DNA from: Escherichia coli
Lineage (GTDB): Bacteria > Pseudomonadota > Gammaproteobacteria > Enterobacterales > Enterobacteriaceae
Strand: one strand, 5' to 3'
NCBI RefSeq assembly: GCF_017348835.2
Contig: NZ_CP071375.1
Length of the DNA stretch: 64,000 nucleotides
Both the position numbers and the translations under genes were made by a program. This document shows positions 13,733 to 14,283 of the stretch, piece after piece. The notes under the pieces are model-generated. The model worked only from the letters and a program-made list of their open reading frames with translations, was not told the origin of the DNA and made no database searches. Position 1 is the stretch's first letter, and every line of letters begins with the position of its first letter.

Positions 13733-13765
13733 AATTTAGTACCTATAGTGAGCAAAATTAGAACA

Positions 13766-13785
13766 AACATAGCAACGGCTATGTT
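13766..13785. promoter_or_regulatory. MntR operator upstream of sitA
   Basis: Palindrome AACATAGC-AACG-GCTATGTT resembles the MntR box of the mntH promoter. Confidence 0.55.
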
Positions 13786-13807
13786 TTATAGCATAAGCAA
13801 TACAAAA

Positions 13808-13828
13808 TGAAAATGATTATCATTAGCA
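13808..13828. promoter_or_regulatory. Fur box upstream of sitA
   Basis: gaaaatgattatcattagc is a close match to the Fur consensus GATAATGATAATCATTATC. Confidence 0.55.
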
Positions 13829-14283
13829 ATTTTAGATCCGAACCGGGATTAGGTTGTTTCCTGCTGGCGACGTGGTACTGAGGAAAAAAGTAGGGCACCT
13901 ATTAGGCTTTGAAATGACTTGATGAGGAAAATTGTTGATGGCAAAAATGGGGCAAAGCGCTGCAAAAGGGGCAAAAAAGGGGCAAAAAAAGAGTGGGTTA
14001 TCGTAGCTTATTGTTGTCGCTGATGATATTTAACACATTGAAAAATAAGTAAAATACTTATGAGTCAGAGAGTTGTGATTTTTGCCCTTACTTGTTCAGG
14101 TTGTATTGTTCTTTCTTGCTAATTTCTTGATTTTGCGACATTTAAAAGCGACTCAATTCGTTATATGGCATCAGAAGAGTATGCGTCATGCCGGAACGCC
14201 CAGCATAAGAAATCTGATATAAAAACTGTGGCGTGTATGGTACGGATTAGAGGGGAAAATGTCAGCACATTTGCGAAATGAAT

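What the first reader, a model, noticed from the sequence alone, without database searches (positions are those of the whole stretch)
13760..13830. Dual metalloregulator operators (MntR box and Fur box) upstream of the sit operon
A palindromic MntR-type site (AACATAGCAACGGCTATGTT) and a near-consensus Fur box (GAAAATGATTATCATTAGC) lie about 35-95 nt upstream of sitA. This indicates that the prophage cargo operon is wired into host Mn and Fe regulons, even though sitB appears inactivated.
Basis: partly seen in the sequence, partly recalled or inferred. Interest (0 to 1): 0.35.

Follow-up and report, generated by a model that had tools for sequence, protein, structure and literature searches.

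The report
Fur and MntR operators of sitABCD promoter
The two DNA motifs are real and are the well-known iron (Fur) and manganese (MntR) repressor binding sites of the sitABCD metal-uptake operon, here carried on an E. coli Rac-type prophage remnant, so the finding is correct but ordinary.

Summary
sitA is on the minus strand, with its ATG at 13732.

- **MntR site:** a perfect 9+9 palindrome, AAACATAGC-N4-GCTATGTTT, lies at 13765-13786. Its half-sites are identical to those of the E. coli K-12 mntH operator.
- **Fur box:** GCTAATGATAATCATTTTC at 13809-13827 matches the consensus at 17 of 19 positions on the sitA strand. Each is the only such site in the 64 kb window, against chance expectations of about 1e-6 and 8e-4.
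ATTGCTTATGCTAT at 13788-13801 matches the 10-base core at 9 of 10 positions and starts exactly 19 nt before the proximal core.
- **Conservation:** this layout (Fur box, then two MntR palindromes 19 nt apart) is present in all 19 Enterobacterales sitA promoters compared. It matches the paired sites of the K-12 mntS promoter.
- **Inferred promoter:** -35 TTTTCA, a 17-nt spacer, then TGcTATAAA. The operators cover the -35, the -10 and the start site, which is a classic double repression by promoter occlusion.
- **Context:** the cassette sits between the tail-fibre genes and attR of a Rac-type prophage. Phage 21 and ColV plasmids carry it with the same promoter.
- **sitB:** it has a rare 265-nt frameshifting deletion that removes the Walker A motif.

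Dual Fur/MntR control of sitABCD is established in Salmonella and Shigella. Novelty: already known.

The parts
13809..13827 (-). Fur box: GCTAATGATAATCATTTTC on the sitA strand, containing the 7-1-7 element TGATAATcATTtTCA at 13808-13822
   Evidence: 17/19 to the Fur consensus and the only such site in the window. Mean 1.23 bits per column across 19 orthologous promoters, against 0.22 bits in the upstream flank. Identical in phage 21, Nissle and EC958.
13803..13821 (+). Overlapping second Fur-like 19-mer, shifted by 6 nt (CAAAATGAAAATGATTATC, 15/19). Together with the main box it forms a 25-bp array of four hexamers.
   Evidence: Overlapping sites 6 nt apart are typical of E. coli Fur clusters (PMC2189734).
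13808..13813 (-). Inferred -35 hexamer TTTTCA, inside the 3' end of the Fur box
   Evidence: Read from the sequence. 88% identity across the orthologues. Inference only: the transcription start site is not mapped.
13788..13801 (-). Distal MntR operator core ATTGC-TTAT-GCTAT (9/10 to ATAGC-N4-GCTAT), spanning the promoter spacer and the -10.
   Evidence: All 19 orthologues have a core at this position, exactly 19 nt before the proximal core. The right arm GCTAT is invariant (2.0 bits).
13785..13793 (-). Inferred extended -10, TGcTATAAA, 17 nt downstream of the -35
   Evidence: Read from the sequence. It is built from the right arm of the distal operator. 14 of the 20 aligned promoters keep the T that forms the TG. 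Inference.
13765..13786 (-). Proximal MntR operator AAACATAGC-CGTT-GCTATGTTT, a perfect palindrome covering the predicted start site
   Evidence: Half-sites are identical to the K-12 mntH operator AAACATAGCAAAGGCTATGTTT. Arms carry 1.8-1.9 bits and the spacer 0.66 bits across the orthologues.
13775..13779 (-). Predicted transcription start region, giving a leader of about 45 nt
   Evidence: Inferred from the position of the annotated RybA/mntS 5' end inside the proximal palindrome of the homologous K-12 mntS promoter, and from the distance to the inferred -10.
12818..13732 (-). sitA, the periplasmic Mn/Fe-binding protein (304 aa, intact)
12256..12817 (-). sitB pseudogene. The start codon is kept; a 265-nt deletion at 12769|12768 causes a frameshift and removes the Walker A motif.
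   Evidence: PGAP calls it a pseudogene in identical DNA.
10548..12259 (-). sitC (11402-12259) and sitD (10548-11405) permeases, both intact
10318..13938 (.). The sit cassette as an insert in the Rac-type prophage. It replaces the K-12 pinR-ynaE-ynaM segment, between the tail-fibre assembly gene and the last ~150 bp of Rac before attR/ttcC.
   Evidence: BLAST against K-12 Rac: homology ends at 10317 and resumes at 13939.

Best explanation
The interval 13765-13827 is the control region of a sigma-70 promoter that drives sitABCD on the minus strand. Two host metalloregulators repress it by occluding the promoter.

- **Fur.** Fe2+-Fur (and, less well, Mn2+-Fur) binds the Fur box and hexamer array at 13803-13827. 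This array overlaps the -35 (TTTTCA).
- **MntR.** Mn2+-MntR dimers bind two adjacent palindromes whose cores start 19 nt apart. The distal, 1-mismatch site at 13788-13801 lies over the spacer and the -10. The proximal, perfect site at 13765-13786 lies over the transcription start. Binding is probably cooperative, as at the mntS promoter.

The operon is therefore transcribed only when both iron and manganese are scarce.

The operators are an ancestral part of the sit cassette. They move with it between lambdoid phages, prophage remnants and ColV plasmids, and the core regulators of any enterobacterial host read them.

In this strain the output is crippled. sitB has lost its Walker A region, so the regulated transcript can no longer specify a complete transporter.

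Shown here: the sequences, their statistics, their conservation and their context. Inferred: the promoter hexamers, the start site, the binding and the metal response.
For: 1. **Motif quality and uniqueness.** The palindrome is a perfect 18/18 match and the Fur box matches at 17/19. Each is unique in the 64 kb window.
2. **Match to a characterised operator.** The K-12 mntH promoter has the same MntR half-sites and the same order, with the Fur box upstream. mntH is the gene for which dual Fur/MntR repression was established (Patzer & Hantke 2001, cited in PMC3852070).
3. **Phylogenetic footprint.** The comparison set was 19 sitA promoters from Enterobacter, Lelliottia, Citrobacter, Cedecea, Pluralibacter, Shimwellia, Klebsiella, Erwinia and Pantoea (SitA 68-87% identical). 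Palindrome arms carry 1.8-2.0 bits, the -35 1.5 bits and the Fur box 1.2 bits. Spacers carry 0.5-0.7 bits and the upstream flank 0.2 bits. The two cores are 19 nt apart in every sequence.
4. **Negative control.** sitA homologues from Rhizobium, Pseudomonas, Bartonella and others, which use other regulators, reach only 9-12/18 for the MntR motif.
5. **mntS parallel.** The K-12 mntS promoter has the same paired 19-nt layout. Paired MntR sites overlapping that promoter, at a spacing compatible with cooperative binding, are described in PMC11275975.
6. **Literature.** MntR and Fur repress sitABCD in Salmonella and Shigella (PMC3852070; PMC8264917). sitA is up 53.8-fold in a Salmonella fur mutant (PMC3212961).
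7. **Regulator present.** The mntR gene is in 5421 of 5426 E. coli genomes.
Against: - There are no binding or expression data for this allele or this strain.
- The promoter hexamers and the start site are inferred. The generic promoter scanner did not call this promoter, because the -10 ends in A rather than T.
- The distal MntR site is imperfect in this allele.
- The primary papers (Ikeda 2005, Runyen-Janecky 2006, Waters 2011, Patzer & Hantke 2001) were not available. The Salmonella and Shigella operator sequences could therefore not be compared base by base.
Confidence: 0.9

Rival explanations
1. The palindrome acts at the RNA level, as an intrinsic terminator or attenuator hairpin in the sitA leader, rather than as a DNA operator.
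For: The terminator scan flagged AAACATAGCCGTTGCTATGTTT followed by GTTCTAATTT on the minus strand. The RNA would fold into a 9-bp hairpin of -9.8 kcal/mol.
Against: - Only 3 G-C pairs and no real U-tract.
- The fold is not better than shuffled sequence (z = -1.47; 20 of 200 shuffles fold at least as well).
- Across the orthologues the arms keep the same sequence (ATAGC/GCTAT) instead of covarying, while the loop varies freely. That is the signature of a protein-binding site.
- By homology with mntS, the start site falls inside the palindrome, so the left arm would not be transcribed.
- No Rfam family matches.
Confidence: 0.03
2. The motifs are chance matches in an AT-rich intergenic region and have no function.
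For: The region is AT-rich, and Fur-like hexamers are common in AT-rich DNA.
Against: - Expectations are 8e-4 (Fur box) and 1e-6 (MntR palindrome) per 64 kb. Dinucleotide shuffles give 0.05.
- Both motifs are positionally conserved in 19 genera-level orthologues whose flanks have diverged.
- The architecture is the same at mntH and mntS.
Confidence: 0.01
3. The operators are intact but are now a relic in this strain. Because sitB is dead, regulation has no physiological consequence beyond making SitA, SitC and SitD and titrating a few repressor molecules.
For: - The sitB deletion removes the Walker A motif and shifts the frame.
- The promoter is base-for-base identical to that of a record with intact sitB (SPF_0923).
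- Only about 21 of 1680 chromosomal copies lack the deleted segment. The lesion therefore looks recent, and operator conservation in this strain is simply inherited.
Against: This does not conflict with the operators being functional binding sites. It concerns only the downstream consequence. A second sit copy, for example on a ColV plasmid, could supply SitB in trans: some genomes carry up to 4 copies. Whether this strain has one is unknown.
Confidence: 0.6

Closest known systems
sitABCD promoter of Salmonella enterica Typhimurium (SPI-1), repressed by MntR and Fur (Ikeda et al. 2005, J Bacteriol 187:912; cited in PMC3852070 and PMC8264917)
   Same: The operon is orthologous and the logic is the same: an MntR site plus a Fur site in the promoter, Mn acting mainly through MntR and Fe mainly through Fur.
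   Different: The genomic context differs (SPI-1 versus a prophage). The Salmonella operator sequences could not be retrieved here, so base-level identity and the presence of a second MntR site there were not checked.
E. coli K-12 mntH promoter (dual repression by Fe-Fur and Mn-MntR; Patzer & Hantke 2001)
   Same: The MntR half-sites are identical (AAACATAGC / GCTATGTTT). A Fur box containing TGATAATCATT lies upstream, and the order and orientation relative to the gene are the same.
   Different: mntH has one full MntR palindrome plus only a CATAGC half-site upstream. The gap between the Fur box and the palindrome is 15 nt, against 21 nt here. The transporter is of a different type (NRAMP) and mntH is a core gene.
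E. coli K-12 mntS (rybA) promoter with paired MntR sites (Waters et al. 2011; discussed in PMC11275975)
   Same: There are two ATAGC-N4-GCTAT cores exactly 19 nt apart that bracket the -10. mntS is proposed to descend from a sitA 5' end (bioRxiv 10.1101/2023.06.02.543501).
   Different: mntS has no recognisable Fur box upstream and encodes only a 42-aa protein. According to that preprint, the Shigella/Salmonella-type SitA signal peptides are not MntS-like.
Shigella flexneri sit locus (Runyen-Janecky et al. 2003, 2006)
   Same: sit lies in a phage-associated island and is repressed by Fe and Mn through Fur and MntR (as summarised in PMC3852070).
sitABCD cargo of lambdoid phage 21 (OL657228) and of ColV plasmids
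   Same: The cassette is the same. The Fur box and the proximal MntR box are identical in phage 21, where the cassette lies between the side tail fibre and attP/int. The ColV copy is 92% identical and sits next to IS1.
   Different: In phage 21 the distal site is ATAGGTTGTGCTAT. In ColV the distal site is perfect while the proximal site (ATAGT) and the Fur box (15/19) are weaker. sitB is intact in both.
Bacillus subtilis MntR arrays at mneP/mneS (cooperative binding; PMC11275975)
   Same: Adjacent 18-bp MntR sites in a fixed register. PMC11275975 states that the mntS spacing equals that of mneP/mneS, and the cores here have the same 19-nt spacing as those of mntS.
   Different: Those arrays activate efflux genes from upstream of the promoter through four weak sites. 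Here two sites overlap the core promoter of an importer and would repress it.

Membership tests
Fur box (E. coli Fur operator) | A 19-bp match to GATAATGATAATCATTATC, or three or more GATAAT-type hexamers, or the 7-1-7 inverted repeat | tested here: met
   17/19 on the sitA strand, 13/14 for the 7-1-7 element, and an overlapping 15/19 site shifted by 6 nt
Fur box (E. coli Fur operator) | Overlaps the -35/-10 of the promoter of a metal-acquisition gene | tested here: inconclusive
   It overlaps the inferred -35 TTTTCA (13808-13813) upstream of sitA, but the promoter and start site are inferred and not mapped
Fur box (E. coli Fur operator) | Conserved at the same position in orthologous promoters | tested here: met
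   1.23 bits per column against 0.22 in the flank. The best Fur match lies at about -85 to -107 in nearly all of the 19 Enterobacterales orthologues; Erwinia mallotivora and E. persicina are exceptions
Fur box (E. coli Fur operator) | Binding by Fe2+-Fur and iron-dependent, fur-dependent repression | not testable with these tools
   Only shown for homologous sit operons in the literature (PMC3212961; PMC3852070)
Enterobacterial MntR operator | An inverted repeat matching the characterised E. coli MntR site (AAACATAGC-N4-GCTATGTTT) | tested here: met
   Perfect 18/18, with half-sites identical to the K-12 mntH site
Enterobacterial MntR operator | Lies over the -10/+1 of the promoter of a Mn-import gene | tested here: inconclusive
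   It lies 34-55 nt upstream of the sitA ATG and covers the start site predicted by homology with mntS/RybA. The start site is not mapped.
Enterobacterial MntR operator | Paired sites in the mntS-type register | tested here: met
   The distal core at 13788-13801 (9/10) starts 19 nt before the proximal core. The spacing is the same in all 19 orthologues and in K-12 mntS (PMC11275975).
Enterobacterial MntR operator | The cognate regulator MntR is present in the host | tested here: met
   The mntR gene is in 5421 of 5426 complete E. coli genomes. The window itself does not include mntR.
Enterobacterial MntR operator | Binding by Mn2+-MntR and Mn-dependent repression | not testable with these tools
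   Known for Salmonella and Shigella sit and for E. coli mntH and mntS from the literature only
SitABCD Mn/Fe ABC importer operon | Four intact genes: the binding protein SitA, the ATPase SitB and the permeases SitC and SitD | tested here: not met
   SitA, SitC and SitD are intact. SitB has a 265-nt frameshifting deletion and retains only profile positions 109-273 of 274, scoring 348.8 bits against a cutoff of 393.
Lambdoid prophage cargo (moron) cassette | Lies in the late-region/att-proximal slot (between the tail-fibre genes and the attachment site), has its own promoter, and is carried by bona fide phages | tested here: met
   It lies between the tail-fibre assembly gene and the Rac right end/ttcC. 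The same cassette is in phage 21, between the side tail fibre and attP, and in 26 other phage records.
Intrinsic terminator / structured leader RNA | A stable GC-rich hairpin followed by a U-tract, or covariation that supports a structure | tested here: not met
   z = -1.47, 3 G-C pairs, no U-tract, arms conserved in sequence without covariation, and no Rfam hit

The most novel reading that the evidence does not exclude
The mobile sit cassette, whether phage-, prophage- or plasmid-borne, carries a conserved pair of MntR operators in the same 19-nt register as mntS (and, according to PMC11275975, the B. subtilis mneP/mneS arrays). Two MntR dimers would then bind cooperatively and sandwich the -10 element.

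Each E. coli allele examined keeps one perfect core and one core with a single mismatch:
- ATtGC in the distal site in this window;
- ATAGg in the distal site in phage 21 and the B2 strains;
- ATAGt in the proximal site in ColV.

This could tune the Mn threshold of horizontally acquired copies relative to the host's own mntH. I found no description of a paired-site architecture for sit promoters in the papers I could read.
Probability: 0.3. Interest if true: 0.3.

Novelty: already known. Interest (0 to 1): 0.1.

Why it matters
It matters little beyond annotation. The result confirms that a virulence-associated Mn/Fe importer spread by lambdoid phages and ColV plasmids carries its own Fur and MntR operators. 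Any enterobacterial host can therefore regulate it correctly on arrival.

The practical value is in three points:
- precise coordinates for the operators and the promoter;
- recognition of the second MntR site;
- the note that this particular copy is a sitB pseudogene, so this strain's sit locus should not be counted as a functional virulence or fitness factor.

Tried and rejected
- **Primary papers.** I tried to read Ikeda 2005, Runyen-Janecky 2006, Patzer & Hantke 2001 and Waters 2011. None is held, so I relied on reviews and on direct sequence comparison.
- **Published Fur matrix.** I tried to rebuild the 24-site Fur information model from PMC2189734. Its site sequences and supplements are not held. 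I used consensus mismatch statistics instead.
- **Markov simulation.** A simulation of chance expectation timed out and was replaced by an analytic calculation.
- **Generic promoter scan.** It did not call the sit promoter, because it requires a T at -10 position 6. The promoter was inferred by eye and from ortholog conservation.
- **Terminator or RNA-hairpin reading of the palindrome.** Considered and rejected.
- **A divergent gene served by the Fur box.** Considered and rejected. There is no annotated gene and no ORF over 46 aa between sitA and uspF.
- **Rfam.** Only a sub-threshold STnc310 match at 14270-14322 (E = 0.8), treated as chance.

Full report
**1. What is in the sequence**

The window is E. 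coli chromosome. The 801 bases around the finding are 100% identical to the chromosomes of strains PE164, GPEC1446 and F2_81. The sit operon is on the minus strand:
- sitA at 13732-12818;
- a sitB remnant below it;
- sitC at 12259-11402;
- sitD at 11405-10548.

The MntR-type site extends to a perfect inverted repeat, AAACATAGC / GCTATGTTT, with a 4-nt spacer at 13765-13786.

It matches at 17/19 on the sitA strand, where it reads GCTAATGATAATCATTTTC. It contains a 13/14 match to the 7-1-7 element. A second 15/19 site overlaps it with a 6-nt shift, an arrangement typical of E. coli Fur clusters (PMC2189734).

**2. Chance**

Each motif is the only such site in the 64 kb window.
- Dinucleotide shuffles give 0.05 expected Fur matches at 3 or fewer mismatches.
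- They give 0.18 expected MntR-pattern matches at 3 or fewer mismatches.
- The i.i.d. expectation is 8e-4 for the Fur box at its observed quality and 1e-6 for the perfect palindrome.

**3. A second MntR site and the promoter**

On the sitA strand the region reads:

GCTAATGATAATCATTTTC-ATTTTGT-ATTGCTTATGCTAT-AAAAC-ATAGCCGTTGCTAT-GTTT...(45 nt)...ATG

Between the two reported boxes lies ATTGC-TTAT-GCTAT at 13801-13788. This is a 9/10 match to the MntR core ATAGC-N4-GCTAT, and it starts exactly 19 nt before the proximal core.

I infer a sigma-70 promoter from this sequence:
- a -35 hexamer TTTTCA (13813-13808), inside the Fur box;
- a 17-nt spacer;
- an extended -10, TGcTATAAA (13793-13785), made from the right arm of the distal MntR site.

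The generic scanner missed this promoter because its -10 ends in A.

The homologous K-12 mntS promoter has the same two cores 19 nt apart. The annotated RybA 5' end falls in the spacer of its proximal palindrome. By analogy the sitA start site is near 13775-13779.

Fur would therefore cover the -35, one MntR dimer the spacer and -10, and a second dimer the start site. The promoter, the start site and the binding are inferences. The sequences are shown.

**4. Comparative evidence**

A protein-anchored scan returned sitA loci from many species. I compared the promoters of 19 Enterobacterales orthologues, with SitA 68-87% identical. They came from Enterobacter, Lelliottia, Pluralibacter, Shimwellia, Citrobacter, Cedecea, Klebsiella, Erwinia and Pantoea.

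The same layout recurs in all of them: a Fur-like box, then two ATAGC-N4-GCTAT cores always 19 nt apart.

Column information content:

| Feature | Bits per column |
|---|---|
| Palindrome arms | 1.8-2.0 |
| -35 hexamer | 1.5 |
| Fur box | 1.2 |
| Palindrome spacers | 0.5-0.7 |
| Leader | 0.6 |
| Upstream flank | 0.2 |

sitA homologues from Rhizobium, Pseudomonas, Bartonella and other non-enterobacterial genera reach only 9-12/18 for the MntR motif. This serves as a negative control.

The arms are conserved in sequence rather than by covariation, which points to protein recognition of DNA and not to an RNA hairpin. The hairpin is in any case unremarkable (-9.8 kcal/mol, z = -1.47), and no Rfam family matches.

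The K-12 mntH promoter, the classic dual Fur/MntR target, has identical MntR half-sites and the same order of boxes.

**5. Within E. coli and mobile elements**

The sitA promoter region occurs in 2355 of 5426 complete genomes, at 1680 chromosomal and 1008 plasmid places.

Alleles compared:
- Phage 21, Nissle 1917 and EC958 keep the identical Fur box. Phage 21 and Nissle 1917 also keep the identical proximal palindrome, while EC958 has one change outside the 10-base core (GCTATATTT). All three carry ATAGG in the distal site.
- The ColV allele has a perfect distal site, ATAGT in the proximal site and a 15/19 Fur box.
- Each allele thus keeps one perfect and one 1-mismatch MntR core.

**6. Context**

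Homology to K-12 Rac ends at 10317, the end of the tail-fibre assembly gene. It resumes at 13939, about 150 bp before the Rac right end and the ttcC remnant. The 3.6-kb sit cassette therefore replaces the K-12 pinR-ynaE-ynaM segment and lies inside the prophage, next to attR.

The same cassette occurs in three other settings:
- in B2 strains, at the end of an icd-site prophage;
- next to IS1 on ColV plasmids;
- in the genome of lambdoid phage 21, between the side tail fibre and attP/int, and in 26 other phage records.

'Prophage cargo' is therefore correct. The promoter with its operators belongs to the cassette: homology among alleles extends about 190 nt upstream of the ATG. The mntR gene is present in 5421 of 5426 E. 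coli genomes.

**7. sitB**

Compared with Nissle, sitB has a 265-nt internal deletion with the junction at 12769|12768. This is not a multiple of three, and it removes the Walker A region.

The remaining ORF matches only positions 109-273 of the 274-position SitB profile and scores below its cutoff. PGAP marks it as a pseudogene in identical DNA.

The deleted segment is present at 2667 places, against 2688 places for the sitA promoter. About 21 chromosomal copies therefore lack it. The lesion is rare and probably recent. The promoter here is identical to that of a record with intact sitB (SPF_0923).

**8. Comparison with what is known**

- Repression of sitABCD by Mn-MntR and Fe-Fur is established for Salmonella (Ikeda et al. 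2005) and Shigella (Runyen-Janecky et al. 2006). Both are summarised in PMC3852070 and PMC8264917.
- sitA is among the most strongly de-repressed genes in a Salmonella fur mutant, at 53.8-fold (PMC3212961).
- Paired MntR sites overlapping the mntS promoter, at a spacing compatible with cooperative binding, are discussed in PMC11275975.
- mntS is proposed to derive from a sitA 5' end that was already under MntR control (bioRxiv 10.1101/2023.06.02.543501).

The finding is a correct recognition of a known regulatory design in a known mobile cassette. The only point I could not find described in the accessible literature is that sit promoters themselves carry the paired, 19-nt-phased MntR sites. 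That is a modest extension.

**9. Verdict**

- Observation: confirmed.
- Interpretation: supported, with the three refinements above (a second MntR site, operators ancestral to the cassette, and a recent sitB lesion).
- Novelty: already known.
- Interest: low (0.1).

Noticed in passing
window 12768-12769 (sitB, minus strand): A 265-nt internal deletion in sitB removes the Walker A motif and shifts the frame. Only about 21 of about 1680 chromosomal sit copies in complete E. coli genomes lack this segment, so the allele is rare and probably recent.
   Followed up: yes
window 13940-13990: Three to four direct repeats of (A)AAGGGGCAAA lie in the last ~150 bp of the Rac-type prophage, just before the ttcC/attR remnant. 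A copy also lies next to the end of intR, near attL, in K-12 Rac (L087 1971-1981). They are plausibly arm-type integrase binding sites. A 24-aa ORF (13932-14006) overlaps them and is probably spurious.
   Followed up: partly
window 10318-13938 versus K-12 Rac (L087 22979-24806): The sit cassette occupies the slot that holds pinR-ynaE-ynaM in K-12 Rac. PMC2189734 reports a 17.1-bit Fur cluster at ynaE, so this cargo slot is associated with Fur sites in both versions.
   Followed up: no
window 1-798 and upstream (from L001): The window begins inside iteS of an iteA/iteS anti-phage system (PGAP names). Lambdoid late and lysis genes follow, and then trkG (about 6225-7682), all within the Rac-type prophage remnant.
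   Followed up: no
L089 (ON032529.1, 'Salmonella phage SPF_0923'): This 'phage' record contains the same Rac-end sit locus with the host genes uspF, ompN and part of the pyruvate-flavodoxin oxidoreductase gene. It is 99.7% identical to the window and looks like an E. coli-type prophage region plus flanking chromosome rather than a packaged phage genome.
   Followed up: no
window 14270-14322 (+): A weak, sub-threshold Rfam match to the Salmonella sRNA STnc310 (19.4 bits against a gathering score of 40, E = 0.8), overlapping the uspF 3' end and terminator region. Treated as chance.
   Followed up: no
L004-L021 and other Enterobacterales sitA loci: In 14 of the 20 aligned sit promoters the last base of the distal palindrome spacer is T. 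This creates a TG extended -10 motif with the G of GCTAT, so the MntR operator and the -10 element share bases.
   Followed up: partly
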